DNA of 64,000 nt from Flectonema sp. DT1601 (taxonomy: Eukaryota): assembly GCA_964019425.1 (NCBI GenBank), contig OZ025785.1, forward strand, positions 434,001-498,000, given 5' to 3'. The notes under the pieces are model-generated. The model was not told where the DNA came from, searched no databases, and saw only the letters and a program-made list of their open reading frames with translations. This document shows positions 1 through 57,470 of the stretch, one piece after another; position 1 is the stretch's first letter, and each line of letters begins with the position of its first letter. The translations under genes and the position numbers were made by a program.

Positions 1-270
1 ACAGTCCCAGGTTGGACGGAGTTCCCACTGACAGATCGACTTGTAATTGATTCGCGTTCCTGTACAGTCCCAGGTCGGACGGAGTTCCCACTGACAGATC
101 GATTTGTAATTGATTTGCGTTCCTGTACAGTCCCAGGTCGGACGGTGTTCTCTCTGACAGATCGACTTGCAATAGTTTTACGTTCCTGTACAGTCCCAGG
201 TCGGACACCGTTCTCAACGACAGATCGGCCTTCTGATTTTTGTTCCTGTACAGTCCCAGGCTGGACGAAC
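1..270. repeat. Tandem repeat, ~4.3 copies of a 63-bp unit (one 60 bp)
   Basis: ACAGTCCCAGG recurs at 1, 64, 127, 190 and 250. Unit lengths are multiples of 3. Confidence 0.95.
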
Positions 271-313
271 TTGCAGCTCCATGCTGACTTGCGATAGAAG
301 GGGTTCCCGCGGT

Positions 314-1720
314 TCACTTCGCCTGTAGACGTGAGCCCCCCCCGGCGTTTCCCTTCGGTCTGAACTGAAAGCGGTTACCCACATTCAGTTTCTTTACAAA
401 GGTTGGTGGGCGTGCTCTCTTCTTTTTTACTATCAAGGCATTCGCCTTTTCTACAGGATCTTCGGATGCTATCAGTAGTTGCTCCTGAAGCTCCGACCGC
501 TTTGTACCGTCTGTACAGAAAAAGTGTTGAAACCTTAACTGTCTCAACAAATCATCCCCCAACTTCACCAAGTGAGGAACCTGCGTCCAGCCTGTCACTC
601 TTTCCATACCAAAAAGGAAGTTTGAGAGGTTCTCAAATTTTTCAACCAATAAGTCCCCTCCCAGACCATATTTTAGACCGGAAACATATCGGCCATCAAG
701 CTTCATCACTAGTGTCGCCGCCTCCTTCGCTTCAAGGATTTCCTCCCATGCCTTGACCTCCTTTGCACATGACGGGTCAGTTATCAGTTCTAGGTGCTCT
801 TCATGATCAGGTTCAGGCTGAGTATTCTGTTGTATCACCGGTGGCTGGAATGGCTGAGGTGGCATCCCCACTGGTGGCTGATGTGATAGTGGCGGTGGCA
901 TCGGCATCGGTGGCTGATGTGATAGTGGCGGTGGTGGCGGTGGCATCGGCATCTTCACTGCTTCGTGTTGCTGTGGTCGTGTCTCTTGTCTTTCTACCCG
1001 TGTTTTTAGCGAAACGAGTTCCGCCATTAGCGACTGCATTACAGTCTCGGTTTGTTGTTGCTGTTGCTGCTGTCTCATTGTAAAATCTTCGATGGTCGTC
1101 CTTATCGACCCCATCTCTTCAGCCGTGTTTTCCCTGTACCTGGCAACCGATTCAAACCTCTGACCCACTCCAGAAAAGGTTGCCTCTGTCCGACTTTCTA
1201 ACACCCTCGTTGCTTCGGCATTGTCTGAACATGCCTGCTGCGCCTGTTGACGCAGTAAGGCTGCATCCTCCTGCAGACTGCCCATCGCATCGTTGGCGTC
1301 ATCATACGACACGAGACGGGGGTTCTCCCCCCTTGACAGCCGCTCTCCAACCTTCGCGGCTTTTTCTGCTACCAATCCTCGATTTACCCTTGACAGCAGA
1401 CCCAATAACACAACTGCATGTGTTATTGGGACCGTCGCCAATGATCCTTGCGGCATCCCCAAAGAGATGGCAAGTGTCCCCCTTACCATCTCCCTAAGCG
1501 ATGTATCATTCCTCAGCTGATTGAGGTCCACTTCAAACGGGATATCTGCTTTTGCTGTATCCAAATCAATCATTTCACTCTCTGTAGGTACCGGATTCCC
1601 TGTCTTTTTCTCCCATACATTCTTCAAGGCAGCAGGGAATGTAAACTCGGAGTTGAGTTTACCAGGTGAGATTTGGACTGTTAGCTTTTGGCTAAGGCCC
1701 TCCCTGAAGAGCAAGAACAA
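314..1720 (-). CDS. Gag-like ORF1 (coiled coil, Gln/Pro-rich, basic C-terminus); first ATG at 1573, pyrimidine tract plus AG acceptor at ~1704
   Basis: 468-codon ORF. Its C-terminus ...KGNAGGGSRLQAK* parallels ...MGNVKGAGSK* of the gag at 9335-10054. Confidence 0.65.
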   Translation of the reverse strand: MFLLFREGLSQKLTVQISPGKLNSEFTFPAALKNVWEKKTGNPVPTESEMIDLDTAKADIPFEVDLNQLRNDTSLREMVRGTLAISLGMPQGSLATVPITHAVVLLGLLSRVNRGLVAEKAAKVGERLSRGENPRLVSYDDANDAMGSLQEDAALLRQQAQQACSDNAEATRVLESRTEATFSGVGQRFESVARYRENTAEEMGSIRTTIEDFTMRQQQQQQQTETVMQSLMAELVSLKTRVERQETRPQQHEAVKMPMPPPPPPLSHQPPMPMPPPLSHQPPVGMPPQPFQPPVIQQNTQPEPDHEEHLELITDPSCAKEVKAWEEILEAKEAATLVMKLDGRYVSGLKYGLGGDLLVEKFENLSNFLFGMERVTGWTQVPHLVKLGDDLLRQLRFQHFFCTDGTKRSELQEQLLIASEDPVEKANALIVKKKRARPPTFVKKLNVGNRFQFRPKGNAGGGSRLQAK

Positions 1721-3397
1721 AAAAACTACTCACACCTGAAGAAAACATACACAAAGAACACACTGTAAGCTGTGTGTGTATTTTGTGTTTGTCACAACAG
1801 GAGAGAAAAGAAAGAATGTCAAGGTTGGTCACCTTGCCTATCAACGCACAACATTGGTGGTCTCTACTAGACCCTGAGTGATCCCACTGGATCTCTCATC
1901 GTTCATAGTACCCTATGTGAAGTTATAAAATCAAAGGTAAACTATGAACTACAAATGACTTAGCCTGTTATTATAATGCCACAGGCAGGCCCTGCATTCA
2001 GCAACTATCCAGCAGTGCTTGAATGTCCTGATCTTCTTCTAAAAAAAAAGAAAGAAAAACAAAACTGTAGCTGGGATCACTCAGGATCAACAGACTACCA
2101 ATGCTACCTGTTGTACTTGCTCACTATGGGGGGTGATGCCAAACACCCAGAAGTACTAAACTGCTTTCCTTCTTGCTGCCCAGGGGTTTCTGACCAGAAC
2201 TAATAGAAAATAAAAACAGATGGGAAACAATAAAAAGTAAAATGAATATAACTGAAGTTAAACAAGAATGTTGGTCCTAGACAAGACCTTAAACTGACTA
2301 ACCGGTCTTAATTTTAACTAAGTGTTAACCTAGTTTCCTAGTTTCTAATATGAAATCTTTTTTCTTTTTTTTTCTTTTTGAACAAAATGTAATTATTAAT
2401 GTAAAAAAATGAAGAAACAGACCAGAACAGATAGAGAATAAAAAAGAAAAGATAATTGCAAGAGTTATTGTAGTAAAAGATTACAAATAAAAAAAAAATG
2501 CAAGTATCAACACATGATCGAGATACACCAGCAGCTAACAAACAACATAAAATTGAAGATCAGTTGCCAGAGTATTTCAACCATGGTAGAATACTCGCCC
2601 CTCTGGCAGGGATTATCCCAGACTTGTCCTTTAATTTAGTTGGCATCTTCGAAAACGTGAGTGTGAGAGAAAGAAGTGATCGAGCTGTATAAAGAATTTC
2701 TTTTTGAAAAAATAGAAGGCTAAAGAATATATAAAAAATGTCTGTTGTTTTGTTCATTTTTCCAACTTCGGAATCATACACTTTTCTGTCTGATTCCTTT
2801 GATTATTTCTTTCCGGTGCTAAGCTTGGTGGAAAATTACCTGAATGAATTCTAGATATAAATACAATCAGTTTAAATAAAAAAAAAAAAAAAAATAAATA
2901 AATAAAAAAAGATTAACGATCAAGCTGAGCTGATCTTGTTTTTATTAAAATAAGGGGAGCGGGAGGGATGGAAGGAATAAAGGAAAAAAAAAGAAAAGGT
3001 CGATCAATTGGATCTGATCGTCGAGAAGAAGGAAACAATTATTTTTAAAAAAAAATGATCGGTATAGCCGATCGTTGAGAAAAGAACAGATATAAATACA
3101 ATCGGTTTTGGTGATCGACGAGTGGAGCGATCACTTGACAAGAAGGAAAAAAGAAAGGACCGATTAATTGGGGCTTTGGTTGTATTCCCAAGGCATGTTT
3201 TTTTTTTTTTTTTTATTATTCATTTACATTATTTTTTTTTTTTTTTTTTAAATTAATAATCACATTTTGTTCAAAAATATTTCATATTAGAGTAAAAGAA
3301 AAAGAGAAAAAAGAAATAAGAGAAAAAAAAAAAAAACCATTGCTGGCCCCCTCACCACTCATAGAGGATGAGGAGGCCAGTAAGGCGTCACTCAAAT

Positions 3398-4132
3398 CTA
3401 TGCCAAGCCTTGGGAACTTGGATTGGGGTTTAGACCATTTACAATTAACTTCCTGTGAGACTCCCTCGCTACCCTTGATTTGTGGGCGAAGAAATCCATG
3501 GTCGTTGAGACCGGTTTACTTTCGGCATCCTTCGAGACTTCTTTGGCCAGCTTATCAGCCTTATCGTGTGGTTCAATCCCCACATGGGCCGGGATAAACT
3601 GGAGATGCACCTGTGTCTTCAGATCCCTAATGCTTTCCAGTATTAACAGAGAGTTCAACTTCCTCTGGGCAACAATCCCTCCATTGAGTTCCTCCAGGTT
3701 GGATTTCGAGTCACTGAAGATTCTGGTAATACCTGACCTGGGACCCAAGATCGAGTCAGCTTTGCCAATTTCTCTCATCAGCAGTTTGAGTGTTACTTGT
3801 TCAGCCTTGTAGCTGCTTTCAGTAGCTACAAGTCTTGACGACATCGTTCTCTCAGTTGGTGAGACCTGTACTGCTGCCGCACCCGCAGTGTAGTTAACAG
3901 GATCATGTGAGCCGTCCACATATATAGCCGAGTTGCAAGGGACTAGGTCCCTGCAGTATTCCTCAAATTTGTTCCTGTCCACATCTGCATCACCGGTCTT
4001 GTTATGACCATACCCACAGGATATCTCTAGATTTGGTACATCCGCCCAGGGTTCGATGCTGTCAGGTTGAACTATTCCTTGGAGGGCGATGTTACAATCT
4101 TCCTGCGGCAACTTAGAACTCCAGAATCCTCG
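3398..4132 (-). pseudogene. RNase H region of a non-LTR (Ingi/I-like) retrotransposon, fragment
   Basis: RNase HI motifs YVDGS, SSYKAE, IFSDSKS, QFIPAHVGI..HDKADKLAK. No ATG; the 5' break abuts the tandem array at 4131. Confidence 0.85.
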
Positions 4133-4574
4133 TCCAGGTCAAGACGCTAAACTGATTGTTTTTTTTTTCAAAATTAATAAAAAAGAATATAAAAAAATAC
4201 AAAAAAAAGAATAAACAATGTTATCATTGTTTTTTTTTATCGTTCGACTTTGTCGACTAATTTCTATTTTCCGTTTTTTTTCTTTAAAAAATAAATAAAA
4301 AGAATTTAAAATAAAAAAAAAAGAATAAACAATGTTATCATTGTTTTTTTTATCGATCGACTATGTCGATTACTTTCTATTTTCCGTCCTGGTCAGGATG
4401 CTAAACTGATTGTTTTTTCTCTAAAAATAAATAAAAAGAATAAAAAAAAAAAAAAAGGAATAAACAATGTTATCATTGTTTTTTTTTTATCGATCGACTA
4501 TGTCGATTACTTACTATTTTCCGTCCTGGTCAAGACGCTAAACGGATTGTTTTTTCTTTAAAATAATTAAAAGG

Positions 4575-5829: not shown

Positions 5830-8700
5830 TCATTGTCGCCCTTTGGGCCTGTTAAAAAAAATAAAAATAAAAAGAAAGTTTACATCGGGAATAGGGCAGG
5901 AGCCAAAAGCTCCCAGTCCGTTACTTCCCACTTTATCGAAATTCGCTATTCGGTTCGTCGAACGTACCCACTTCAGCGATCGATACCTAAACAGAGCAGT
6001 TCTGGCCTGTTTTTCTATTATCAACTTCATCGGGAGCATGTTCGCCTCCAAGAGCAGTGGGAGAGACCTGGTGTAGATGCTGCAACCCGTTATCCTTCTC
6101 GCAATCTTCTTCAGATTCAAGTCCACAAGATCAATCTGACCCTCAGATAGGAAAGGACCGAAGCTCTCCAGCCCATATGACAGCCTTGAAAGTATGTACA
6201 GGTTCTTGACCATGCACAGCGTCTTAAAATCAAAATCATACTGTTCTAGTTTCCCCAGGAGTGCAAGACCCTTCCTGGTCTCATCCAGCATCTTTCCGAC
6301 CTGTGTTCCATAAGATAAATCACCATCAATGTGCACCCCCAGGTATTTAACGCTGTCTACCATCGGCATCAGTACTGCGGTTAACAACTTTACTCTCAGC
6401 TTACTTGATCCATCAGGGAAAATTTCAAGCAGGTCCTTCGTATTAGCAACTTCGGTATCATCCACCTTGAGAATGGTTTCTCCACTCCCCAGAATTGGCC
6501 TTCCAAACTCGTTCGGTCTGATCATCTTAGCCAGATCTCCCCTGCTTACAACGTAATAATTATCCTTTGCAGTCCTGGGGAAGCCCAGTCTCCAGTAGAT
6601 ATCCTTTGGGCAGCGCACAGGCATACCACATGTCTTAGAGACGGACAGTGCCATATCATTGGTTTTGCACCAGCTATCCACAAGTCCAAGGATCCATTGC
6701 GCTTTCTTATTGGTTAAATTAACGTCCTTATCAGAGACTACACAAGCGGTGTCATCTGCATAAAGAGCCGAAACTGAGCCAGTCTTCTCCAACAACTTTG
6801 CCAGGTCATCAACATAAATCAGGTATAGCAGCGGACCGATAATCGATCCTTGGGGAACCCCCCTCGTTACCGTTCTGTAGGAGCTAAGGTTGCCATTCGC
6901 ACTCACCCTTGCCTGCCTGCCCTTCAGGAAGTCAACTACCCACGCAATGAACGGAGAGGGAATACGCATGTTCTTCATCTTCTTGATCAGTTTCTCATGA
7001 TTAATTCTATCAAATGCTTCCGTGAAGTCGAACGACAGCAGAACAGAGCTCTTGTTCTTTTCACTGGCCTCATGAAGAGCGTTGACTAACATTGAAATCT
7101 GCTCACACGTATTCCTTCCTCTTCTAAAACCCGCCTGGATAGACGACAGGGCATTGTTCTGGGTAAGCCAATACATCAACCTATCATAAATCACTCTTTC
7201 AAGTACTTTACCCACCACCGAGGTCAACGTGATCGGTCTGAAACTTGCGATCTTATCTTTTGGCTTACCTGGTTTGTAAACTGGCTTGATAAGACCCTCC
7301 TTCCAGATCCTCGGTACCTTTGACGTTAGCCACGATTCATTGAATAACGCCAGGAGGAAATCCATTCCTATCACCGATAAGTTCTTCAACATTATCCCAT
7401 GGATTCCATCTGGACCTGGTGCTTTCCCGGGCCTTACCTTCTTGATGGCTCGCTTCAGTTCAGTCATTGTTAGATTCCCTCCGATTTTGGCGAAGTCGCT
7501 GCTCTTCGTATTCGGAGGTCCTAGTTTACGTTTTGTCGGGGTCTTAACAAATTGTTCCAAGAACTTCGCAGGTAGTTGGTTCTCGTCAAACTCCGGAATG
7601 TGAATTTCACGTCCTTCATCCGTCTCAAGGTCCTTTATCTTTTTGAACGCATATGCAAAGCCTTCACCTTTTGCTAGCCGTTCAGCGATAAATTTTCCCT
7701 TCGCACGCTTGGTATCTGGGGTGGAAGCGTTCCACATTCTTCTTCTCTTCCCTTTGATCCGAAGCCTTCTTCTAACGTACCTCTTCGCTACTCCAAGAAC
7801 GATTCTGTTGAACGTTACTGCTCTTCTCCCAACGCTCGCAGAGTTGTTTACCTTTCCAAACCTGTAGTCTAGTTCATGTTCATATGAGTACCAATCAGCT
7901 GTATTGAAGTCCCAGACCGATCTCTTCGTCGCGTGGTTGCCCGAAGGCTCAAGGGGTGAGAGCGTATCGAAGGTAGCAGAGAGTGGTGTATGATCCGAAC
8001 CGTGCTCAATTCCTTCACCTACCAGCTCAAAGTTCAGCAGTTGAATCTCCTCGTGGTGCAGGATCAGATCGGGCGAGGTCCCATGTCTCGGCAGTGTCGC
8101 TAGACCTGGCGGGTTCGCAATCAGGAGGTCCTCTTGCCCTGTCCAGTTGAGAAGGTCACAGCCTTTTACGTCGGTTTTCTTGGACCAGTACCTATGGTGT
8201 GCGTTGAAGTCACCAGCGAGAATGAACTTGCCAACACGTTTCAGGGAGAATAGTTCAAAATTAATCCTCGAGCTCGGTGGGGAGTAGATGTTGAGAATAC
8301 TTACGTCTTCGTTAATTCTGACACCCATCGACTCGACGGTTCCTCTCATCGACGGTATGGAGATATCAAAGCAATCATGTTGAATTCCTCGTTTTATTAA
8401 AGTGATCAGGCCACCTCCCCTTCCTGGCCTATCCCTCCTGTAGCAAACGTAGTTCCAATGAAACAATGCCATCCTGCAAGAAGTCTCCTGAAGGCAAAGT
8501 ACGTCGGGGTCAAGCTTACTCAGGATGTGTCCAATGAACTCCATTTTGTTCGAGATGGTGCGACAATTCCAACTGATTACATTTAGTTTGCAAGAGGGAC
8601 CATCCTTTCTCCTATTCGGCCCTGGGTTTCGTTCAACGTCCCCTGCTATCAGCAAGAGACGTCTTCGAGTCTCAGCCCAGTTCCTTCCATCTACGTGCCG
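5830..8700 (-). CDS. LINE ORF2: 2A-APE-RT. The last ~16 codons (5830-5880) run into non-element AT-rich DNA.
   Basis: Uninterrupted frame from the TGA at 8701-8703 to 5830. No AUG before the first APE motif. Confidence 0.88.
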   Translation of the reverse strand, partial: RHVDGRNWAETRRRLLLIAGDVERNPGPNRRKDGPSCKLNVISWNCRTISNKMEFIGHILSKLDPDVLCLQETSCRMALFHWNYVCYRRDRPGRGGGLITLIKRGIQHDCFDISIPSMRGTVESMGVRINEDVSILNIYSPPSSRINFELFSLKRVGKFILAGDFNAHHRYWSKKTDVKGCDLLNWTGQEDLLIANPPGLATLPRHGTSPDLILHHEEIQLLNFELVGEGIEHGSDHTPLSATFDTLSPLEPSGNHATKRSVWDFNTADWYSYEHELDYRFGKVNNSASVGRRAVTFNRIVLGVAKRYVRRRLRIKGKRRRMWNASTPDTKRAKGKFIAERLAKGEGFAYAFKKIKDLETDEGREIHIPEFDENQLPAKFLEQFVKTPTKRKLGPPNTKSSDFAKIGGNLTMTELKRAIKKVRPGKAPGPDGIHGIMLKNLSVIGMDFLLALFNESWLTSKVPRIWKEGLIKPVYKPGKPKDKIASFRPITLTSVVGKVLERVIYDRLMYWLTQNNALSSIQAGFRRGRNTCEQISMLVNALHEASEKNKSSVLLSFDFTEAFDRINHEKLIKKMKNMRIPSPFIAWVVDFLKGRQARVSANGNLSSYRTVTRGVPQGSIIGPLLYLIYVDDLAKLLEKTGSVSALYADDTACVVSDKDVNLTNKKAQWILGLVDSWCKTNDMALSVSKTCGMPVRCPKDIYWRLGFPRTAKDNYYVVSRGDLAKMIRPNEFGRPILGSGETILKVDDTEVANTKDLLEIFPDGSSKLRVKLLTAVLMPMVDSVKYLGVHIDGDLSYGTQVGKMLDETRKGLALLGKLEQYDFDFKTLCMVKNLYILSRLSYGLESFGPFLSEGQIDLVDLNLKKIARRITGCSIYTRSLPLLLEANMLPMKLIIEKQARTALFRYRSLKWVRSTNRIANFDKVGSNGLGAFGSCPIPDVNFLFIFIFFNRPKGRQ
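8617..8655 (-). other. 2A-like StopGo (ribosomal skipping) peptide LLIAGDVERNPGP
   Basis: Exact match to the D(V/I)ExNPG|P consensus, preceded by a Leu-rich tract. Confidence 0.92.
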
Positions 8701-9334: not shown

Positions 9335-10054
9335 ATGCAGCGGAACATGTCGGATGTTAATATGCGTCCTGAAGTGGAGGTGAATATGCGTCCTGAAGCA
9401 GAAGTGAATATGCGTCCTCAGGCGGATTATAATTTTCGTACCGAACACCAAACCTGTCCACCAATTCCTGGTGGTTACCATCACTTGAATAGTTCAGACG
9501 TTAGTAATGTTCCTTATCATATGGCAGCACAGAGTGAAGTCTTGATGCAGATGGCGGCGATGATGAGGGAACAGAGTAGGCCGAAAGGTAGTGATAAAGA
9601 CGATATAGCTCTTGAACCAAACTTCGCGACAGATGCGAAGCAATTTATTCAATGGCGTGGGATTATTGGTAATCCTGCCGATCCGTATGCGACGGATAAT
9701 TTAATTCGCGATCTTTACGCGAAGTATGTGTCGGCTGCTACCGCTAGCTCGCAGTTTCAGTCTAGTCAGCTGAACAGAGATTGGGAGATGCTGAAGGACG
9801 GTATAATCTCGGTACGGGATTTTGTGTTCTTCGGGTACTATAGGTGGTACGACTTGCCGGCCTACACTCGAAACTTGAACAGAATGTATCGCAGATTGAT
9901 ATATTCGTCCAATGAGTTCAAGAAGGAACACAACACTCCTAGGAGTGGCAAAGGCGGTCAGGTACAGAGGTTCACAGCTTACAAGGGGGGCTACAATTGG
10001 AGTGGAAAAGGAGCGAAGTCGATGGGAAACGTGAAAGGGGCTGGCTCCAAGTGA
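9335..10054 (+). CDS. Gag-like ORF1 with three N-terminal VNMRPxxx repeats
   Basis: 239-aa ORF just upstream of YR and RT. TTTTAG acceptor-like site just 5' of the ATG. Confidence 0.75.
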   Translation: MQRNMSDVNMRPEVEVNMRPEAEVNMRPQADYNFRTEHQTCPPIPGGYHHLNSSDVSNVPYHMAAQSEVLMQMAAMMREQSRPKGSDKDDIALEPNFATDAKQFIQWRGIIGNPADPYATDNLIRDLYAKYVSAATASSQFQSSQLNRDWEMLKDGIISVRDFVFFGYYRWYDLPAYTRNLNRMYRRLIYSSNEFKKEHNTPRSGKGGQVQRFTAYKGGYNWSGKGAKSMGNVKGAGSK

Positions 10055-40454: not shown

Positions 40455-42432
40455 TAGGGGGGGGTACAAGCTGTCGATAAAGTACTTTTTCCGAATTTTG
40501 GTAAATATAACCTTCCCGGGGGCAAAAATTACCCAGGACCCCATCAGAACCCCCAAAAATGTGATTTCGGGGCTGAAAAAACCTCGATTTGGCTGATTTC
40601 GGCAAAGGAATGAAAAATCTCAAAAAGTGTGGACCGTGTGGTACCTGGGGGTCCAATTTTGAGGCCTGTGAAATGCACCTTCAAATAATTTTTTTTTACA
40701 ATGAGAAGAGGTGAGTCTTGGTGTGCCCCTGTGCACGCAGTGTGCTAATATACCATTTCCGTATCAGTTTCCACCTCAAGAACACGCCACGAAAGAGAGC
40801 ATCGCTCTCGCCCGGCCATGCTTGAGGTCACGAGGCTCACGGGCAGGATAACGCAGCTGAAAACGATGTTCTGCAGGGCAGCTCACAAAGTCATTCTGCG
40901 GAGGAGAGCATTGATCCCAGAGTGCATGAAAACACCTCCCGAGACATCCCTGAAGTCACTCAACAGCACTTGGACAGTCAGAAGTAAGATACGCGTGAGA
41001 AAGGGGTTCAAAAAACGTCCAGTATCTGCATCGTGATCACAGAAGGCTCAGAGAATAGAGAAAGCGTCACGTCTGTACCCCAAACAGGGATAAGCCTGAA
41101 GACAGCTGTAGTGGTAGTGCCTCAAATAGCAGTGCCATAGATAAGCAGCAGCGACATAGGGCAACATGCCCCATCCAAAAAGCCGTTCAAGGCATCACTT
41201 CAGAAGACCCAACCATACTCACCAGCGGGGCATACAAGACACTCTAGTACATGCAGCATTCGAAGAAGTACGGAAGAGACATCCGCTTGCAACTGTACCC
41301 AAGCGAGGGGGATTTACTCCTAGAGTCTTGGAGTCGTAACTACACTGCAGATATTGCGGCAACAAGGGATCGGCGCAGAGAGATCCAACAAAGCCCTGAG
41401 TGAGTGACATAGTTGACGTCGCCGGTGCACAGACAGAAGGGAAGCGGGTCGAAGTCCCCGACTATATCTCGAAGGACAGTCCGACTTGTTGATGAATTCA
41501 CAGGTGATCTGTCAGTGACCTGACTTCTTGAAGCAGCAGCTTCCTTCTCACCCTCCATCACATCGCTGCAACATGATACTTCCTCTAGTGCCCGTCATGC
41601 TCGTGGGCTGAAGCTAACAACCGTGGCGTTCGTTGTCCGCACCCCTCAAGGGATGGGGAGGTTATTCAGTGTGTTGTTGTTGATAGTTCTTAGTCAACTA
41701 ACGGAACCATTGGAGTGAGGGCTGCCCTACTGATAACGTACAACATATTCCAGAGGCACACGGACTTCCAAAGGCTACCACATCAACGCAGGACCACCAA
41801 CCCTCTTCAGATTGGCAAGAACAAGCACAACAGGAAGCGCTACAGGGGCTGAAAGTACCACTCCGTCCTCACAGGGAAGACCTCTAGACAGCAAGGCCTA
41901 ATGCTAATCTGCCATCCGCATCCAAGGATTGGTCCTCTGTCTATCTTGTACAGAAAGAAGCACAGCTTCGAGCCGAATTTCGAAAGCTGAGCACATGGGA
42001 TGTTCAAGAGAAGGCCAGTAGCCTAAGCATCGAAGATGGGGAATTAACAAGCCCGGTCTGGTGGAGCATATTATTAAGGTTCAGGATGGGTCGATAAAAT
42101 CATAAATTGGGTTCCCATTTCATCCCCCACACAACTCGGAGGGAAACCCTGGTTATGGATTGCTCAATGCACGGAATTACTTGTAATTTTTGTGAGCCCT
42201 CCTAACACACCCCTTGTTTTCACCCCCCTCAGGTACCACACGGTCCACACTTTTTGAGATTTTTCAAAGACTTGTTCTAAAGTGCCGAAGAACTGTTTCT
42301 TTGGATCGCAATCCCCATTTTTGGGGTATATGTTGTACTTTTCATAATTTGGGTGCCCAAAAAACTTGTTCTCCGGGAAAAAACCGAAAGTGCCCAAAAT
42401 CTCCGTAAAATCGATGCTTGTACCCCCCCCTA
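40455..42432. mobile_element. ~1.98-kb non-autonomous TIR element, copy 1
   Basis: Ends TAGGGGGGGGTACAAGC...GCTTGTACCCCCCCCTA, subterminal 37-bp IR (40611-40647 / ~42230-42266), flanked by G26 and G11. Confidence 0.85.
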
Positions 42433-42443
42433 GGGGGGGGGGG

Positions 42444-44419
42444 TAGGGGGGGGTACAAGCTGTCGATAAAGTACTTTTTCCGAATTTTGGTAAATATAAC
42501 CTTCCCGAGGGCAAAAAATACCCAGGACCCCATCAGAACCCCCAAAAATGTGATTTCGGGGCCGAAAAAACCTCGATTTGGCTGATTTCGGCAAAGGAAT
42601 GAAAAATCTCAAAAAGTGTGGACCGTGTGGTACCTGGGGGTCCAATTTTGAGGCCTGTGAAATGCACCTTCAAATAATTTTTTTTTACAATGAGAAGAGG
42701 TGAGTCTTGGTGTGCCCCTGTATGCGCAGTTTGCTAATATACCATTTCCGTATCAGTTTCCACCTCAAGAACGCGCCACGAAAAAGAACAGCGCTCTCGC
42801 TCGGCCATGCTTGAGGCCACGAGGCTCACGGGCAGGATAACGCAGCGGAAAACGACGTTCTGCAGGGCAGCTCACAAAGTCATTCTGCGGAGGAGAGCAT
42901 TGATCCCAGGGTGCATGAAAACACCTCCCGAGACATCCCTGAAGTCACTCAACAGCACTTGGACAGTCAGAAGCAAGATACGCGTGAGAAAGGGGTCCAA
43001 AAACGTCCAGTATCTGAATCGTGGTCACAGAAGGCTCACAGAATAGACAAAGCGCCACGTCTGTACCCCAAACAGGGATAAGCCTGAAGACAGCTGTAGT
43101 GGTAGTGCCTCAAATAGTAGTGCCATAGATAAGCAGCAGCGACATAGGCCAACATGCCCCATCCAAAAAGCCGTTCAAGGCATCACTTAAGACCCAACCA
43201 TACTCACCAGCAGGGCATGCAAGACACTCCAGTACATGCGGCATACGAAGAAGTACGAAAGACACACCCGCTTGCAACTGTACCCGAACGAGGGGGATAT
43301 ACTCCTGGAGTCTTGGAGTCGTAACAACACTGCAGATATTGCGGCAAGAAGGGATCGGCGCAGAGACATCCAACTAAGTCCTGAGTGGGGGACATAGTTG
43401 AAGCTATCGTGGGTGCGCAGACAGAAGGGAAGCGGGTCGAAGTCACCAATTATATCTCGAAGGACAGTCCGACTTGTTGATGGATTCACAGGTGATCTGT
43501 CAGTGACCTGACTTCTTGAAGCAGCAGCTTCCTCCTCACCCTCCGTCACATCGCTGCAGCATGATACTTCCTCTAGTCCCCGTCGTGCTCGTGGGATGAA
43601 GCTAACAACCGTTGTGTTCGTTGTCATCCTGCACCCCTCAAGGGATGGGGAGGTTATTCAGTGTTGTTGATAGTTCTTGGTCAACTGATGGAACCAGTGG
43701 CGTGAATGCTGCCCTGCTGATAACGTACAACATATTCCAGAGGCACACGGGCTTCCAATGGCTACCACATCAACGCAGGACCACCGACCCTCTTCAGATT
43801 GGCAAGAACAAGCACAACAGGAGGCGCCACAGGGGCTGAACGTACCACTCCGTCCTCACGGGGAAGACCTCTAGACAGCAAGGCCTAATGCTAATCTGCC
43901 ATCCGCATCCAAGGATTGGTCCTCTGTCTATCTTGTACAGAAAGAAGCACAGCTTTGGGCCGAATTTCGAAACCTGAGCACATGGGATGTTCAAGAGAAG
44001 GCCAGTAGCCTAAACATCGGACAAGGGGGAATTAACACGCCGGGTCTCGTGTAGCATATAATTAAGGTTCAAATCAGGTCGATAAAAATAAAAATTGAGT
44101 TCCCATTTCATTCCCCACTCAACTCAGAGGGAAACCCTGGTTATGGATTGCTCAATGCACGGAATTACTCGTAATTCTTGTGAGCCCTCCTAACACACCC
44201 CTTGTTTTCACCCCCCTCAGGTACCACACGGTCCACACTTTTTGAGATTTTTCAAAGACTTGCTCTAAAGTGCCGAAGAACTGTTTCTTTGGATCGCGAT
44301 CCCCATTTTTGGGGTATATGTTGCAGTTTTCATAATTTGGGTGCCCAAAAAACTTGTTCTCCGGAAAAAACCGAAAGTGCCCGAAATCTCCGTAAAATCG
44401 ATGCTTGTACCCCCCTCTA
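42444..44419. mobile_element. ~1.98-kb non-autonomous TIR element, copy 2 (head-to-tail, diverged from copy 1)
   Basis: Colinear with copy 1 with many substitutions and small indels, same TIRs, flanked by G11 and G16. Confidence 0.85.
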
Positions 44420-47884: not shown

Positions 47885-50800
47885 ATGTTGCGAATTGCTG
47901 TCGCTTCATCAGCAGTAGCTGTCGCTTTGGGATGCTTCCCAACTTGCGATGATGACTGCAACAGATTATCACCTCCACAACTTGGTGAGGTGACTAGACT
48001 GAGGAAACTTAAGGAGAAGTGTACTTCTGGAGAGGAAGTTGTGTTCAACGTTGACTACAATCCTTGTACTCATAATTTAGATTATAAAGTACGAACACCA
48101 GACAATTGTGAACAGAGACAGGGAAATGTGTTTACATGCAAGAACAATAAGAGGTGTAAAGTTATCCCATTCCTTACTGAATTAAAGTTCTGTGACTGCT
48201 CTTCAAGCCCAGGACCTTCACCTCCAACTACTCCAACCAACCCATGCGGTAGTAAATGTGGAGCTGAAGAGATATGTTACATGAGGGATACTATCTGTAA
48301 TACTTTTAGTTGTCATCCAGTCCCAACATGTATTACTAACCACTGTATGTTTAGCAAGTGTGAATATGGTAACGATTGCGTCATCACAGACCACGGAGAT
48401 TCATCGACCTGCAAGCCTTGGTCTGAGATTGGATGTTTTGACAAGCCGTGCAAGGCAGGATACACTTGTGTTGATGTTAAGAGAGTCTGCAAGACTGCCC
48501 CATGTTATCAATATGAGTGTAGTTGGGAAGCACCAGCTCCAGTTCACTGTACGGCCGATGCCAAGAAGTGTCCTGACGGCTCCTCCGTTGGAAGAGATTC
48601 CAACAACAACTGTGAGTTCCACCCTTGCCCTGATCCATGTGGAGGAAGTTGTTTGTTTAACCAAGATTGCTTAATTCAGAAGATTAAGTGTCCTGAGGGA
48701 ATGGTTTGTACACCACGCGCTGTTTGCTTTGACAAGCCTTGCAACAAGAAGTGTCCAAAGGGTGACGTTTGTGAACACATGGTTGCTCCGTGTCTGATTC
48801 CACCATGCCCAGTAGTTGAGACGTGTAAAACTGTTGTTCAGCCAAAGTGTGACAAGAAGTGCCCAAAGGGTGAGGTTTGTGAGATCGTTGTTGCTCCATG
48901 TCTGATTCCTCCGTGCCCGGAGTTCCCAACATGCAAACCTGTCGTTCAAGTGTGTACGGATGATGCGAAGCAATGTCAAGATGGCTCCTTCGTTGGGAGA
49001 GATTCCAACAACAACTGTGAGTTCCACCCATGCCCTGATCCATGTGATGGAGCTTGTAAGTTCAATCAGGACTGCTTGTTGAAGAATGTAATTACGTGTC
49101 CTGAGGGAATGGTGTGCCCTCCGACTGTTGTTTGCGTTGACAAGCCTTGCAACAAGAAGTGTCCAAAGGGTGACGTTTGCGAGCTCATGGTTGCTCCGTG
49201 TCTGATTCCACCATGTCCAGTAGTTGAGACGTGTAAACCACTTTCACCACCAACTACTCCAACCAACCCATGCGGTAGTAAATGTAGAGCTGAAGAGATA
49301 TGTTACATGAGGGATATTATCTGTAATACTTTTAGTTGTCATCCAGTCCCAACATGTATTACTAACCACTGTATGTTTAGCAAGTGTGGATATGGTAACG
49401 ATTGCGTCATCACAGACCACGGAGATTCATCGACCTGCAAGCCTTGGTCTGAGATTGGATGTTTTGACAAGCCGTGCAAGGCAGGATACACTTGTGTTGA
49501 TGTAAAGAGAGTCTGCAAGACTGCCCCATGTTATCAATATGAGTGTAGTTGGGAAGCACCAGCTCCAGTTCACTGTACGGCCGATGCCAAGAAGTGTCCT
49601 GACGGCTCCTCCGTTGGAAGAGATTCCAACAACAACTGTGAGTTCCACCCTTGCCCTGATCCATGTGGAGGAAGTTGTTTGTTTAACCAAGATTGCTTAA
49701 TTCAGAAGATTAAGTGTCCTGAGGGAATGGTTTGTACACCACGCGCTGTTTGCTTTGACAAGCCTTGCAACAAGAAGTGTCCAAAGGGTGACGTTTGTGA
49801 ACACATGGTTGCTCCGTGTCTGATTCCACCATGCCCAGTAGTTGAGACGTGTAAAACTGTTGTTCAGCCAAAGTGTGACAAGAAGTGCCCAAAGGGTGAG
49901 GTTTGTGAGATCGTTGTTGCTCCATGTCTGATTCCTCCGTGCCCGGAGTTCCCAACATGCAAACCTGTCGTTCAAGTGTGTACGGATGATGCGAAGCAAT
50001 GTCAAGATGGCTCCTTCGTTGGAAGAGATTCCAACAACAACTGTGAGTTCCACCCTTGCCCTGATCCATGTGATGGAGCTTGTAAGTTCAATCAGGACTG
50101 CTTGTTGAAGAATGTAATTACGTGTCCTGAGGGAATGGTGTGCCCTCCGACTGTTGTTTGCGTTGACAAGCCTTGCAACAAGAAGTGTCCAAAGGGTGAC
50201 GTTTGCGAGCTCATGGTTGCTCCGTGTCTGATTCCACCATGTCCAGTAGTTGAGACGTGTAAAACTGTTGTTCAGCCAAAGTGTGACAAGAAGTGCCCAA
50301 AGGGTGAAGAATGTGAATTAATTGACACCCCTTGTCCATTCCCTCCATGCTCAAAGGCTGAGATCTGTTCACCAATTGGATGTGGTGATGATCTAAAAGA
50401 CTGTTCAGATGGAAGTAGTGTTGAGAGAGATCCAAAGAACGGTTGTCAGTTCTTCCCGTGTCCTGTTGATGGTGAATGTGAAGATGAAGATGATTGTGAA
50501 GGCTGGAATTTCTGTATTGAGGGTAAGTGTGTTGATGCATTTGAGGGAACTTGTAATTCCGTTAAAGACTGTAACGGTTACGGATGCTACTACAACGACA
50601 ACAAGGAACCAACTTGTCGTACCACCTGCATGGGAGAACCAACCTGGTTGTGTGACAAGAACCACCTCTGTTTGGGAGATGAGTGTGTTGATATGAAGCA
50701 GTGTAAGACTAACTGTGGAAACCTTGTTCCTCATTTATTTAAAGGAAATGACGACGGAGACAACAGTTGTAATGAATGCACCTGCTTCAATGGTGACTAC

Positions 50801-52603
50801 AGCTGTACTGAGAGAGGTTGCACCGGTGATGAGACTTGTGGGGGACCTTCACCACCAACTACTCCAACCAACCCATGCGGTAGTAAATGTGGAGCTGAAG
50901 AGATATGTTACATGAGGGATACTATCTGTAATACTTTTAGTTGTCATCCAGTCCCAACATGTATTACTAACCACTGTATGTTTAGCAAGTGTGGATATGG
51001 TAACGATTGCGTCATCACAGACCACGGAGATTCATCGACCTGCAAGCCTTGGTCTGAGATTGGATGTTTTGACAAGCCGTGCAAGGCAGGATACACTTGT
51101 GTTGATGTTAAGAGAGTCTGCAAGACTGCCCCATGTTATCAATATGAGTGTAGTTGGGAAGCACCAGCTCCAGTTCACTGTACGGCCGATGCCAAGAAGT
51201 GTCCTGACGGCTCCTCCGTTGGAAGAGATTCCAACAACAACTGTGAGTTCCACCCTTGCCCTGATCCATGTGGAGGAAGTTGTTTGTTTAACCAAGATTG
51301 CTTAATTCAGAAGATTAAGTGTCCTGAGGGAATGGTTTGTACACCACGCGCTGTTTGCTTTGACAAGCCTTGCAACAAGAAGTGTCCAAAGGGTGACGTT
51401 TGTGAACACATGGTTGCTCCGTGTCTGATTCCACCATGCCCAGTAGTTGAGACGTGTAAAACTGTTGTTCAGCCAAAGTGTGACAAGAAGTGCCCAAAGG
51501 GTGAGGTTTGTGAGATCGTTGTTGCTCCATGTCTGACTCCTCCGTGCCCAGAGTTCCCAACATGCAAACCTGTCGTTCAAGTGTGTACGGATGATGCGAA
51601 GCAATGTCAAGATGGCTCCTTCGTTGGGAGAGATGCCGACAACAACTGTGAGTTCCACCCTTGCCCTGATCCATGTGATGGAGCTTGTAAGTTCAATCAG
51701 GACTGCTTGTTGAAGAACGTAATTACGTGTCCTGAGGGAATGGTGTGCCCTCCGACTGTTGTTTGCGTTGACAAGCCTTGCAACAGGAGGTGTCCAAAGG
51801 GTGACGTTTGCGAGCTCATGGTTGCTCCGTGTCTGATTCCACCATGTCCAGTAGTTGAGACGTGTAAACCACTTTCACCACCAACTACTCCAACCAACCC
51901 ATGCGGTAGTAAATGTGGAGCTGAAGAGATATGTTACATGAGGGATGTTATCTGTAATACTTTTAGTTGTCATCCAGTCCCAACATGTATTACTAACCAC
52001 TGTATGTTTAGCAAGTGTGACTATGGTAACGATTGCGTCATCACAAACCACGGAGATTCATCGACCTGCAAGCCTTGGTCTGAGATTGGATGTTCTGACA
52101 AGCCGTGCAAGGCAGGATACACTTGTGTTGATGTAAAGAGAGTCTGCAAGACTGCCCCATGTTATCAATATGAGTGTAGTTGGGAAGCACCAGCTCCAGT
52201 TCGCTGTACGGCCGATGCCAAGAAGTGTCCTGACGGCTCCTCCGTTGGAAGAGATTCCAACAACAACTGTGAGTTCCACCCTTGCCCTGATCCATGTGGA
52301 GGAAGTTGTTTGTTTAACCAAGATTGCTTAATTCAGAAGATTAAGTGTCCTGAGGGAATGGTTTGTACACCACGCGCTGTTTGCTTTGACAAGCCTTGCA
52401 ACAGGAGGTGTCCAAAGGGTGACGTTTGTGAACACATGGTTGCTCCGTGTCTGATTCCACCATGCCCAGTAGTTGAGACGTGCAAAACTGTTGTTCAGCC
52501 AAAGTGTGACAAGAAGTGCCCAAAGGGTGAGGTTTGTGAGATCGTTGTTGCTCCATGTCTGATTCCACCATGTCCGGAGTTCCCAACATGCAAGCCTAAA
52601 TAA
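47885..52603 (+). CDS. Large secreted Cys-rich repeat protein, copy A (1572 aa)
   Basis: Signal peptide, 342-aa (1026-bp) internal repeats, CTxDAKxCPDGSxVGRD modules, one pacifastin-like CNECTC..G...CTERGC. Confidence 0.9.
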   Translation: MLRIAVASSAVAVALGCFPTCDDDCNRLSPPQLGEVTRLRKLKEKCTSGEEVVFNVDYNPCTHNLDYKVRTPDNCEQRQGNVFTCKNNKRCKVIPFLTELKFCDCSSSPGPSPPTTPTNPCGSKCGAEEICYMRDTICNTFSCHPVPTCITNHCMFSKCEYGNDCVITDHGDSSTCKPWSEIGCFDKPCKAGYTCVDVKRVCKTAPCYQYECSWEAPAPVHCTADAKKCPDGSSVGRDSNNNCEFHPCPDPCGGSCLFNQDCLIQKIKCPEGMVCTPRAVCFDKPCNKKCPKGDVCEHMVAPCLIPPCPVVETCKTVVQPKCDKKCPKGEVCEIVVAPCLIPPCPEFPTCKPVVQVCTDDAKQCQDGSFVGRDSNNNCEFHPCPDPCDGACKFNQDCLLKNVITCPEGMVCPPTVVCVDKPCNKKCPKGDVCELMVAPCLIPPCPVVETCKPLSPPTTPTNPCGSKCRAEEICYMRDIICNTFSCHPVPTCITNHCMFSKCGYGNDCVITDHGDSSTCKPWSEIGCFDKPCKAGYTCVDVKRVCKTAPCYQYECSWEAPAPVHCTADAKKCPDGSSVGRDSNNNCEFHPCPDPCGGSCLFNQDCLIQKIKCPEGMVCTPRAVCFDKPCNKKCPKGDVCEHMVAPCLIPPCPVVETCKTVVQPKCDKKCPKGEVCEIVVAPCLIPPCPEFPTCKPVVQVCTDDAKQCQDGSFVGRDSNNNCEFHPCPDPCDGACKFNQDCLLKNVITCPEGMVCPPTVVCVDKPCNKKCPKGDVCELMVAPCLIPPCPVVETCKTVVQPKCDKKCPKGEECELIDTPCPFPPCSKAEICSPIGCGDDLKDCSDGSSVERDPKNGCQFFPCPVDGECEDEDDCEGWNFCIEGKCVDAFEGTCNSVKDCNGYGCYYNDNKEPTCRTTCMGEPTWLCDKNHLCLGDECVDMKQCKTNCGNLVPHLFKGNDDGDNSCNECTCFNGDYSCTERGCTGDETCGGPSPPTTPTNPCGSKCGAEEICYMRDTICNTFSCHPVPTCITNHCMFSKCGYGNDCVITDHGDSSTCKPWSEIGCFDKPCKAGYTCVDVKRVCKTAPCYQYECSWEAPAPVHCTADAKKCPDGSSVGRDSNNNCEFHPCPDPCGGSCLFNQDCLIQKIKCPEGMVCTPRAVCFDKPCNKKCPKGDVCEHMVAPCLIPPCPVVETCKTVVQPKCDKKCPKGEVCEIVVAPCLTPPCPEFPTCKPVVQVCTDDAKQCQDGSFVGRDADNNCEFHPCPDPCDGACKFNQDCLLKNVITCPEGMVCPPTVVCVDKPCNRRCPKGDVCELMVAPCLIPPCPVVETCKPLSPPTTPTNPCGSKCGAEEICYMRDVICNTFSCHPVPTCITNHCMFSKCDYGNDCVITNHGDSSTCKPWSEIGCSDKPCKAGYTCVDVKRVCKTAPCYQYECSWEAPAPVRCTADAKKCPDGSSVGRDSNNNCEFHPCPDPCGGSCLFNQDCLIQKIKCPEGMVCTPRAVCFDKPCNRRCPKGDVCEHMVAPCLIPPCPVVETCKTVVQPKCDKKCPKGEVCEIVVAPCLIPPCPEFPTCKPK

Positions 52604-53777
52604 ATTGTATCAACCAATATTTTTACTTTTTTCCATTTATAATTTCATTTGAATAACAGTTTGTAACTGATATTAACTACACCTTTCTGTTGTAAAGGTT
52701 TGGTGACTTGAAGTTTTATAAAACTGATTCCCAATTCACAAGTCAGTGTCTCCATGGAGAAACGCGGCATCGATCCGTGCTGATATTCTTCTTTGAATAC
52801 ACAATAGACTCTCACTGTTTCATTAGTGATAAATTAACTAAACTGAATGAATACAATCAGTATCTCTTAATGAGAAAGGCGGCTTTATTGTCGTGCTGAT
52901 CAAGTTCTTTAAACGAAACAGTTTTTAATCCTTTCTCTCCAGAACCACGTTAGCATCTCGCTTGAGAAATGCGGCTTAAATGCCGAGCTAATGGTTTCAT
53001 CCGATTATTTGATAATTTCTTTAGTTGTGTACTTCTGGAGGGGAAGTATCTTGTTCTTGTTTTCTTTTATTCAAAATTATTCTTTCGGATCAAACAAAAC
53101 TTTAATGTTTGTTTTGTCTTGGATTCCTTTCCTCTCTTGTTGATGGTAACTGTGAGTGTTGTCTAACTTTTAATTTATTATTATTTTTCTACAGGAAGAG
53201 GAAATGAATTACGTTGATGTTGTCCTCGTAGCTCTGGAGAGTTAACCCGATGCTCTTTAGTTTGCTGTCTATCAGAGATGCACAGTACGCAATGTATTGG
53301 ACTTCCTTATCTATCTAGTCACATTATCATTGTGTGGTTTTAATTACAATTCCGTAATATTATTATAACTGAACCCTCCTCTCAGTACAGTCTGCAAGGA
53401 ATACTTAAAAAGGCTACAGTTCACTGTGTCCTCATATTGTCGTTGCTTTAATTATTCCTAAGTATTCTTATTTAGTATCTCGTATCAATTATTGTAAGAC
53501 GAAGTATGTATGTAAACTAGACTACTCAGCTGATAGTGTGCTGTGAGTTAGTAATTATTTCAATTCAACAGTTTCACAGATATGAATATGTAGATTACAC
53601 CACAACTGATGTCTGAGAGAATAGAGATACAGAGTTTATCGTATTAACTCTGTTGATATCTTAGATGGCTATTTCTTGTGATTGTTTTCCTTCTTCAGGT
53701 AATTTAACTTTTAAATGATGGTGAGCTTTGACTTATTTATATAATCGTTACCTCCCAACAGTTTTATTCAAAAATAA

Positions 53778-56700: not shown

Positions 56701-57470
56701 CTGAGAGAGGTTGCACCGGTGATGAGACTTGTGGGGGACCTTCACCACCAACTACTCCAACCAACCCATGCGGTAGTAAATGTGGAGCTGAAGAGATATG
56801 TTACATGAGGGATGTTATCTGTAATACTTTTAGTTGTCATCCAGTCCCAACATGTATTACTAACCACTGTATGTTTAGCAAGTGTGAATATGGTAACGAT
56901 TGCGTCATCACAGACCACGGAGATTCATCGACCTGCAAGCCTTGGTCTGAGATTGGATGTTTTGACAAGCCGTGCAAGGCAGGATACACTTGTGTTGATG
57001 TTAAGAGAGTCTGCAAGACTGCCCCTTGTTATCAATATGAGTGTAGTTGGGAAGCACCAGCTCCAGTTCACTGTACGGCCGATGCTAAGAAGTGTCCTGA
57101 TGGCTCCTCCGTTGGAAGAGATTCCAACAACAACTGTGAGTTCCACCCTTGCCCTGATCCATGTGGAGGAAGTTGTTTGTTTAACCAAGATTGCTTAATT
57201 CAGAAGATTAAGTGTCCTGAGGGAATGGTTTGTACACCACGCGCTGTTTGCTTTGACAAGCCTTGCAACAGGAGGTGTCCAAAGGGTGACGTTTGTGAAC
57301 ACATGGTTGCTCCGTGTCTGATTCCACCATGCCCAGTAGTTGAGACGTGTAAAACTGTTGTTCAGCCAAAGTGTGACAAGAAGTGCCCAAAGGGTGAGGT
57401 TTGTGAGATCGTTGTTGCTCCATGTCTGATTCCACCATGTCCGGAGTTCCCAACATGCAAGCCTAAATAA
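53778..57470 (+). CDS. Large secreted Cys-rich repeat protein, copy B (1230 aa)
   Basis: Near-identical tandem paralog lacking exactly one 342-aa unit. Confidence 0.9.
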   Translation: MLRIAVASSAVAVALGCFPTCDDDCNRLSPPQLGEVTRLRKLKEKCTSGEEVVFNVDYNPCTHNLDYKVRTPDNCEQRQGNVFTCKNNKRCKVIPFLTELKFCDCSSSPGPSPPTTPTNPCGSKCGAEEICYMRDVICNTFSCHPVPTCITNHCMFSKCGYGNDCVITDHGDSSTCKPWSEIGCFDKPCKAGYTCVDVKRVCKTAPCYQYECSWEAPAPVHCTAEAKKCPDGSSVGRDSNNNCEFHPCPDPCGGSCLFNQDCLIQKIKCPEGMVCTPRAVCFDKPCNRRCPKGDVCEHMVAPCLIPPCPVVETCKTVVQPKCDKKCPKGEVCEIVVAPCLTPPCPEFPTCKPVVQVCTDDAKQCQDGSFVGRDSNNNCEFHPCPDPCDGACKFNQDCLLKNVITCPEGMVCPPTVVCVDKPCNKKCPKGDVCELIVAPCLIPPCPVVETCKPLSPPTTPTNPCGSKCGAEEICYMRDIICNTFSCHPVPTCITNHCMFSKCGYGNDCVITDHGDSSTCKPWSEIGCSDKPCKAGYTCVDVKRVCKTAPCYQYECSWEAPAPVHCTAEAKKCPDGSSVGRDSNNNCEFHPCPDPCGGSCLFNQDCLIQKIKCPEGMVCTPRAVCFDKPCNKKCPKGDVCEHMVAPCLIPPCPVVETCKTVVQPKCDKKCPKGEVCEIVVAPCLIPPCPEFPTCKPVVQVCTDDAKQCQDGSFVGRDSNNNCEFHPCPDPCDGACKFNQDCLLKNVITCPEGMVCPPIVVCVDKPCNRRCPKGDVCELMVAPCLIPPCPVVETCKIVVQPKCDKECPKGEECELIDTPCPFPPCSKAEICSPIGCGDDLKDCSDGSSVERDPKNGCQFFPCPVDGECEDEDDCEGWNFCIEGKCVDAFEGTCNSVKDCNGYGCYYNDNKEPTCRTTCMGEPTWLCDKNHLCLGDECVDMKQCKTNCGNLVPHLFKGNDDGDNSCNECTCFNGDYSCTERGCTGDETCGGPSPPTTPTNPCGSKCGAEEICYMRDVICNTFSCHPVPTCITNHCMFSKCEYGNDCVITDHGDSSTCKPWSEIGCFDKPCKAGYTCVDVKRVCKTAPCYQYECSWEAPAPVHCTADAKKCPDGSSVGRDSNNNCEFHPCPDPCGGSCLFNQDCLIQKIKCPEGMVCTPRAVCFDKPCNRRCPKGDVCEHMVAPCLIPPCPVVETCKTVVQPKCDKKCPKGEVCEIVVAPCLIPPCPEFPTCKPK

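What the first reader, a model, noticed from the sequence alone, without database searches (positions are those of the whole stretch)
1..360. The same recoding cassette recurs in a second, highly divergent element
Seen on the - strand: gag ends AAG GGA AAC GCC GGG GGG GGC TCA CGT CTA CAG GCG AAG TGA ACC. It has the same in-frame G_GGA_AAC (+ strand 347-353), a G-rich stem (GGCUCAC/GUGAACC, GGGG/CCCC) and the same AAG-UGA-A stop. Downstream the 0 and -1 frames are both open to the window edge, and the only two stops (178-180, 214-216) are in the +1 frame. The two gag proteins are otherwise not alignable by eye, so recurrence argues for selection on the cassette. Caveat: only ~310 repetitive nt are visible.
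Basis: partly seen in the sequence, partly recalled or inferred. Interest (0 to 1): 0.8.

Follow-up and report, generated by a model that had tools for sequence, protein, structure and literature searches.

The report
Retrotransposon frameshift-or-readthrough translation switch
At the end of its first gene, this jumping gene and many distant relatives carry one conserved signal that likely lets the ribosome stop, slip back one base to make the copying enzyme, or read through the stop codon to make the integrating enzyme, which would explain how these elements make three proteins from one message.

Summary
The window holds two VIPER-like tyrosine-recombinase (YR) retrotransposons, probably of a euglenozoan. 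In sister copies of element B the -1 frame runs on into RT-RNase H (P0067), and the 0 frame carries YR motifs. The cassette is family-wide. Of 28 metagenome loci, 24 show the gag end and 22 have the layout gag-UGA-YR in frame with RT in -1. Adding element A, 21 of 23 have an in-frame slippery heptamer 15-51 nt before the stop (18 of 358 control windows), 23 of 23 stop at UGA followed by C or A, and a stem starts 3-9 nt after the heptamer. Published T. cruzi, Crithidia and Bodo VIPER copies show it too (read by eye). Best model: -1 frameshift gives Gag-RT/RH (about 0.9), UGA readthrough gives Gag-YR (about 0.7). No RNA or protein data. A and B are sister lineages, so this is inheritance, not convergence; B's own fold is weak and this copy's gag is interrupted. 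I found no description in print (10 searches) or in this scan's notes.

The parts
314..1729 (-). Element B gag-like ORF (stop to stop, 471 codons); intact sister copies encode 448 aa starting MPLVEF
347..353 (-). Element B slippery heptamer G_GGA_AAC, in the gag frame, 30 nt before the stop
296..343 (-). Element B candidate stimulatory stem (arms 343-336 and 303-296) with the UGA in its loop; modest support
   Evidence: 1 of 40 shuffles as good; nested fold z +0.7 to +0.8
314..316 (-). Element B gag stop UGA, followed by A; predicted readthrough codon
2..313 (-). Element B 0 frame after the stop, 104 codons, no stop and no ATG; leads to YR in sister copies
3..374 (-). Element B -1 frame, open from upstream of the heptamer; leads to RT-RNase H in sister copies
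1..267 (-). 63-nt tandem repeat in the doubly coding linker; sister proteins differ by whole 21-aa units (1070, 1091, 1133 aa)
1650..2643 (.). 994-nt insertion separating B's gag ATG (2646-2644) from the rest of gag; found with other flanks in other runs
9335..10054 (+). Element A gag-like ORF ending at UGA 10052-10054, followed by A
10024..10030 (+). Element A slippery heptamer G_GGA_AAC, 21 nt before the stop
10037..10069 (+). Element A 10-bp stem starting 6 nt after the heptamer, UGA in the loop
   Evidence: z -3.4 to -3.7
10055..11254 (+). Element A tyrosine recombinase, gag frame; first ATG 48 codons after the UGA (10199)
9943..12888 (+). Element A -1 frame, open across all of YR and on into RT-RNase H

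Best explanation
The gag end of these VIPER-like retrotransposons is likely a three-way translational switch on one mRNA, where a ribosome would either slip back one base at the slippery heptamer and make Gag-RT-RNase H, stop at the UGA 5-17 codons later and release Gag, or read through that UGA and make Gag-YR. Shown by sequence: the gene layout, the open frames, the heptamer, the stop identity and their conservation. Predicted: a stem, in one sub-family an H-type pseudoknot, starting 3-9 nt after the heptamer, with the UGA inside its loop, that stimulates the slip. Inferred: that both recoding events occur (-1 frameshift about 0.9; readthrough about 0.7). Inferred purpose: YR elements have no protease, so two alternative Gag fusions would deliver RT and YR as separate, low-abundance proteins to a Gag assembly; the 350-520 residues of -1 frame lying over YR would be a spacer.
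For: Frameshift: in-frame X_XXY_YYZ within 60 nt of the stop in 19 of 23 intact junctions (21 of 23 allowing G_GAU_UUU) against 14 (18) of 358 in-frame windows elsewhere in gag and 0 (1) of 46 off-frame windows. The common heptamers G_GGA_AAC, G_GGU_UUU and A_AAA_AAC are three of the four listed as most shifty in PMC5009743 (passage). No -1 stop between heptamer and UGA in 272 codons against 24 in 1008 codons just upstream. The -1 frame is open over the whole visible YR in 21 of 23; the other two break where YR breaks; 293-368 stops would be expected over the 9287 codons. Best stem 3-9 nt after the heptamer beats the shuffle mean in 23 of 23 and the 5% level in 20 of 23. In a 7-sequence sub-family the pseudoknot helix is 100% paired with one compensatory change. 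Readthrough: stop is UGA in 23 of 23 (17 of 17 lineages) against 50% of chance stops and 9 of 14 YR stops (Fisher p 0.012); the next base is C or A in 17 of 17 lineages (66% by chance, p 0.0008); CUA or CGG follows in 5 of 23 and CUN in 13 of 23, UGA-CUA/CGG being the type II readthrough motif (PMC3159437, passages); the gag frame stays open for 838 codons between UGA and the first AUG over 17 lineages. The same layout is in the 10 published VIPER records I saw (PMC6681497 Additional file 10, by eye).
Against: No ribosome, RNA or peptide data. Under the stricter control (shuffling each linker's own -1 codons) only 6.7 stops are expected in the linkers and 11.6 of 17 lineages would be open anyway; joint P 1.6e-4. 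YR's own stop is also UGA-rich (14 of 19). B's context UGA-ACC is not a textbook readthrough motif, and the structure surrounds the UGA instead of starting about 8 nt after it as in known readthrough sites. Every intact locus has an in-frame AUG upstream of the YR core; I looked for conserved YR sequence upstream of the first AUG in family B and it lies downstream of Met185. In T. cruzi an AUG overlaps the stop in the -1 frame and another follows it directly. Exceptions: L004 has no heptamer, L001 a variant (G_GCU_UUU), L024 has G_GGA_AAC but UAG-G and shifted frames, L028 has RT in the gag frame and YR in +1 with no heptamer, L012 and L020 show no gag. B's fold is weak.
Confidence: 0.68

Rival explanations
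1. RT is made by the -1 frameshift, but YR starts at its own AUG, by reinitiation after Gag termination or from a separately trans-spliced or spliced message; UGA is an ordinary stop.
For: In-frame AUGs exist upstream of the YR core in all 23 intact junctions; the first AUG after the stop is in the YR frame in 13 of 17 lineages; T. cruzi has AUG directly after the UGA. An earlier scan note proposed splicing for an Ngaro element (unchecked).
Against: 13 of 17 equals the background, since 72% of AUGs in the overlap are in that frame (p 0.47). The AUG lies 10-101 codons away, 4 of 17 lineages have an out-of-frame AUG first, and the T fraction before AGs in the linkers (0.00-0.47) is mostly below that upstream of 13 host ORFs (0.33-0.57). 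It does not explain 17 of 17 UGA followed by C or A, nor the open linkers.
Confidence: 0.22
2. Termination-reinitiation at the overlapping N-UGA: UGA is kept because it supplies an NUG start in the -1 frame for RT, with no frameshift.
For: UGA always creates NUG in the -1 frame; AUGA occurs in the 6 T. cruzi records and one C. fasciculata record; gene callers start P0067 at this GUG.
Against: The base before UGA is A in 0 of 17 lineages (G 10, C 6, T 1); the heptamer, the stem after it and the open -1 frame upstream of the UGA would have no purpose.
Confidence: 0.05
3. UGA is reassigned (Trp or Sec) in the hosts, so Gag-YR is a plain fusion.
For: Stop reassignment is known in the trypanosomatid Blastocrithidia (search listing).
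Against: Element A's YR ends at UGA where homologues also end; 3 of 14 long host ORFs end at UGA; the cassette holds in T. cruzi and Crithidia, which use the standard code (recalled).
Confidence: 0.02
4. Chance or relic: the likeness of A and B reflects recent common descent and G-rich composition.
For: A and family B are sister rows; B's visible linker is repeats; B's fold is unremarkable; this copy of B is interrupted.
Against: The cassette holds in loci whose RTs are only 26-33% identical to family B's, with different heptamers and spacings, including elements with 95-100% identical terminal repeats.
Confidence: 0.03

Closest known systems
VIPER retrotransposons (order DIRS, VIPER-like; Ribeiro et al. 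2019, PMC6681497: parts 1-2 of 9, passages, and parts of Additional files 10 and 11 seen)
   Same: gag-YR-RT/RH order with YR and RT overlapping; split direct repeats in relatives; weak hepadnavirus-type RNase H hit; YR and RT motifs match the T. cruzi record by eye; the published copies carry the same cassette.
   Different: The paper treats them as three ORFs; 'readthrough', 'stop codon' and 'translation' occur 0 times and 'frameshift' only for mutations. The hosts here are probably diplonemid-like or unknown, not trypanosomatids.
Retroviral and LTR-element gag-pol -1 frameshifting (heptamer, spacer, stem or pseudoknot; PMC5009743, passages)
   Same: Same heptamers, 3-9 nt spacer and 3' structure; gives a Gag-RT fusion.
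   Different: Here the unshifted frame also continues past the gag stop into a second enzyme, and there is no protease (PMC3783388, passage).
Stop-codon readthrough: MuLV gag UAG plus pseudoknot; type II UGA-CUA/CGG of alphaviruses and tobraviruses (PMC3159437, passages)
   Same: One in-frame stop between gag and an enzyme; UGA-C contexts, including CUA and CGG.
   Different: The UGA is nested in the frameshift signal, 15-51 nt after the heptamer and inside the stem's loop; about 40% of lineages use UGA-A.
TATE elements (PMC6681497 Additional file 11, search hits only)
   Same: Sister group with gag, YR, RT/RH; A_AAA_AAC motifs present.
   Different: In 2 of 7 hits A_AAA_AAC is followed directly by UAA (by eye, not verified as gag ends), suggesting a simple frameshift without the UGA.

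Membership tests
VIPER-like YR retrotransposon | Three ORFs in the order gag-like, YR, RT/RH, the last two overlapping | tested here: met
   Element A directly; family B through P0067 and P0086. Gag is assigned by position only; no Pfam family.
VIPER-like YR retrotransposon | Split direct repeats A1 ... B1 A2 B2 | tested here: inconclusive
   Present in 4 of 7 long relatives examined (L001, L013, L019, L021); none found around element A; B's 3' end is outside the window.
VIPER-like YR retrotransposon | RNase H allied to hepadnavirus polymerase | tested here: inconclusive
   Weak PF00336 hits only (E 0.019 for A, 0.066 for P0067).
VIPER-like YR retrotransposon | Groups with named VIPER in an RT or YR tree | not tested
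   No named VIPER sequence was among the stored proteins; motifs were compared by eye with the T. cruzi record. Named YR homologues are Diplonema papillatum hypothetical proteins, 43-53% identical.
VIPER-like YR retrotransposon | No target-site duplication | not tested
   Element ends were not defined in the window.
Canonical -1 programmed ribosomal frameshift | In-frame X_XXY_YYZ heptamer before the ORF1 stop with the -1 frame open from there | tested here: met
Canonical -1 programmed ribosomal frameshift | 3' stimulatory structure about 5-9 nt after the heptamer | tested here: inconclusive
   Met for A and 20 of 23 junctions; weak for B itself (spacer 3 nt, nested fold z +0.7).
Canonical -1 programmed ribosomal frameshift | Measured transframe product | not testable with these tools
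   No RNA holder listed.
Programmed UGA readthrough (type II) | Conserved single in-frame stop with continued coding in the same frame | tested here: met
   22 of 24 metagenome loci with a visible gag end, plus A
Programmed UGA readthrough (type II) | UGA-CUA or UGA-CGG context | tested here: inconclusive
   5 of 23 exact, 15 of 23 UGA-C; not met for A (UGA-AGG) or B (UGA-ACC)
Programmed UGA readthrough (type II) | Stem-loop starting about 8 nt 3' of the stop | not tested
   Structures were scored from the heptamer, not from the stop; the stop lies inside the predicted fold.

The most novel reading that the evidence does not exclude
VIPER-like retrotransposons across Euglenozoa, T. cruzi's included, use a single nested recoding element in which one RNA structure both drives -1 frameshifting into RT and encloses a leaky UGA that is read through into the recombinase: a three-way branch point that replaces protease processing, kept for hundreds of millions of years while gag became unalignable.
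Probability: 0.6. Interest if true: 0.85.

Novelty: new variant of a known kind. Interest (0 to 1): 0.74.

Why it matters
How DIRS-order elements translate their overlapping YR and RT frames is not addressed in the papers I could read. This gives a precise, short, testable signal for the VIPER branch, predicts Gag-RT/RH and Gag-YR fusions that current annotations split or start at the wrong codon (T. cruzi VIPER included), and supplies natural reporters for frameshifting and UGA readthrough in euglenozoan ribosomes. Frameshift and readthrough nested within 15-51 nt and sending one leader protein to two different enzymes is an arrangement I did not find described.

Tried and rejected
No whole genome was held. 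A metagenome scan with B's gag found nothing; a viral-contig scan with the YR alignment found nothing. No RNA holder was listed; contigs laid on element A's region did not cover it. P0003 and P0066 end early in the -1 frame; P0003 comes with other fragments from a 7,809-nt contig and carries frame changes, while 5 of the 15 listed members of P0067's cluster besides P0067 start at the junction and run 1070-1133 aa, so I read these as broken copies. mis-framed L007 and L023; one search corrects this. The idea that conserved YR sequence lies upstream of the first AUG in family B failed (Met185 precedes it). The excess of YR-frame first AUGs is background. The AAG before the stop is not conserved. 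RNAalifold found no doubly changed pair among its 20 nested pairs; the named structure has 2, on only 7 related sequences. ViennaRNA pseudoknot folding was unavailable, so second stems come from a simple search and are unreliable singly. Rows left out of counts: L006 and L016 (junction not in contig), L012 and L020 (no gag), L024 and L028 (other layout); L004 was left out of the stem test and L001 entered by hand. Four intact loci show under 80 gag codons before the contig edge. 'Intact' was defined partly by the open frames, so 22 of 24 is the unselected count.

Full report
Setting. The window is eukaryotic, with long ORFs mostly on one strand beyond 18 kb and several mobile elements in the first 16 kb. 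Element A (9335-12888, plus) has a gag-like ORF, a tyrosine recombinase (YR) in the same frame after one UGA, and a -1 frame open from 9943 across YR into RT-RNase H. Its YR has 30 homologues, the named ones being Diplonema papillatum proteins at 43-53% identity, so the host is probably a euglenozoan (inference). Element B is the finding: a gag-like ORF on the minus strand ending at 314.

Observation. Three corrections: B's nested fold is no more stable than shuffles (z +0.67, +0.84), though its G-run/C-run stem is matched by only 1 of 40 shuffles; the AAG before the stop is incidental (2 of 23); and this copy has a 994-nt insertion after the gag start codon, seen elsewhere with other flanks, so it may be inactive.

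The prediction. No genome was available, so I followed B through protein databases. B's -1 peptide finds P0067, 1070 aa, 95% identical, 22 members, with RT and a weak hepadnavirus-type RNase H hit, 39% identical to A's -1 ORF over 796 residues. The frame overlapping P0067 in the gag register is compatible with the YR motifs WKTASRW and HSIKRG at residues 355 and 449, and has no forced stop between the gag stop and residue 723; both motifs appear in 0 of 2000 shuffles. B's 0-frame peptide finds P0086, open through the repeats into a helix matching the YR N-terminal region (0 of 300 shuffles) before a LINE-like sequence interrupts it. A contig end in run X1 continues past the repeats with letters that match P0067 by eye. 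Sister proteins differ by whole 21-residue repeat units, which keeps both frames in register.

The family. A YR alignment fetched 28 metagenome loci. Two lack the junction and two show no gag. Of the other 24, 22 have gag-UGA-YR in one frame with RT in -1; L024 has G_GGA_AAC, UAG-G and frames shifted as by one lost base; L028, the most distant in the RT tree, has RT in the gag frame and no heptamer. With A this gives 23 junctions in 17 lineages at 60% YR identity. An in-frame heptamer lies 15-51 nt before the stop in 19 of 23 (strict) or 21 of 23 (with G_GAU_UUU), against 14 or 18 of 358 windows elsewhere in gag. The -1 frame has no stop in 272 codons between heptamer and UGA, against 24 in 1008 just upstream, and stays open over YR in 21 of 23. 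A stem begins 3-9 nt after the heptamer and reaches the 5% level in 20 of 23 (that set includes B and omits L004). In seven related loci it extends to a pseudoknot whose second helix is fully paired with one compensatory change, with the UGA in an inner hairpin in most. Four of seven long loci have the VIPER split direct repeats at 95-100% identity. Their RTs are 26-33% identical to family B's; A and B are sisters at 47%.

The stop. It is UGA in 17 of 17 lineages, followed by C (10) or A (7). Chance stops in the same frame are 50% UGA, YR's own stops 9 of 14 (p 0.012), and long host ORFs end mostly at UAA (10 of 14). The gag frame is open for 838 codons before the first AUG. Using the RT-region stop rate, 1.3 of 17 lineages would be in frame and open by chance; with a stricter shuffle of each linker's own codons, 6.7 stops are expected and the joint P is 1.6e-4. 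This supports readthrough but less strongly than the frameshift, and an in-frame AUG is always available downstream.

Published VIPER. In Additional file 10 of PMC6681497 (parts 1-3 of 6 read, the rest searched) all 10 records I saw show the cassette by eye: B. saltans G_GGA_AAC then UGA-A; three C. fasciculata copies with an A run, A_AAA_AAC or G_GGA_AAC, then UGA-A; six T. cruzi copies with A_AAA_AAC, a 10-bp stem and UGA-A. These readings were not run through any tool. In T. cruzi AUG codons overlap and follow the stop, which favours reinitiation in that lineage.

Mechanism. Most likely a -1 frameshift yields Gag-RT/RH, termination yields Gag, and UGA readthrough yields Gag-YR. The layout and conservation are shown; the structure is predicted; the recoding is inferred. 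YR elements lack a protease (PMC3783388, passage), which gives a reason for two alternative Gag fusions (inference).

Prior art. Ten full-text searches and passages of ten papers gave no description of recoding in VIPER or DIRS elements; the held part of the frameshifting review PMC5009743 (first 300,000 of 449,034 characters) mentions neither. This scan's notes had no matching finding.

Verdict. A real, conserved feature of a known family; each recoding mode is known, their nesting at one junction appears undescribed. New variant of a known kind; interest 0.74.

Noticed in passing
window 5830-8700 (-): LINE-type ORF (endonuclease plus RT) with a 2A-like DVERNPGP motif near its N terminus, as recalled for L1Tc/ingi elements; an RNase H ORF follows at 3398-4138.
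   Followed up: no
window 1650-2643: 994-nt non-coding insertion in B's gag; other runs hold it with different flanks, and one contig joins its two ends with 544 letters between. Probably a non-autonomous mobile element.
   Followed up: partly
L028 815-860: Divergent YR element with RT in the gag frame after UGA-A and YR in +1, no heptamer: a decayed copy or a swapped arrangement.
   Followed up: partly
L024 188-480: G_GGA_AAC followed by UAG-G; frames fit either a one-base loss near 460-480 or a variant in which the -1 shift leads to YR.
   Followed up: partly
P0004, P0005 (gag relatives of B, 33-34% identical): Both end SGNGRGFAK-stop, as a G_GGA_AAC cassette would give; DNA not seen.
   Followed up: no
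window 13585-15297 (-): 570-codon ORF with a weak GIY-YIG hit (E 0.008), possibly a Penelope-like element.
   Followed up: no
window 40611-44323: 41-nt inverted repeats in four copies about 1.6 kb apart, suggesting tandem short DNA elements.
   Followed up: no
window 47885-57470 (+): Two long ORFs built of near-identical cysteine-rich repeats, no Pfam family.
   Followed up: no
P0086: A family B copy whose YR frame is interrupted by, and fused in frame to, a LINE endonuclease-like sequence.
   Followed up: partly
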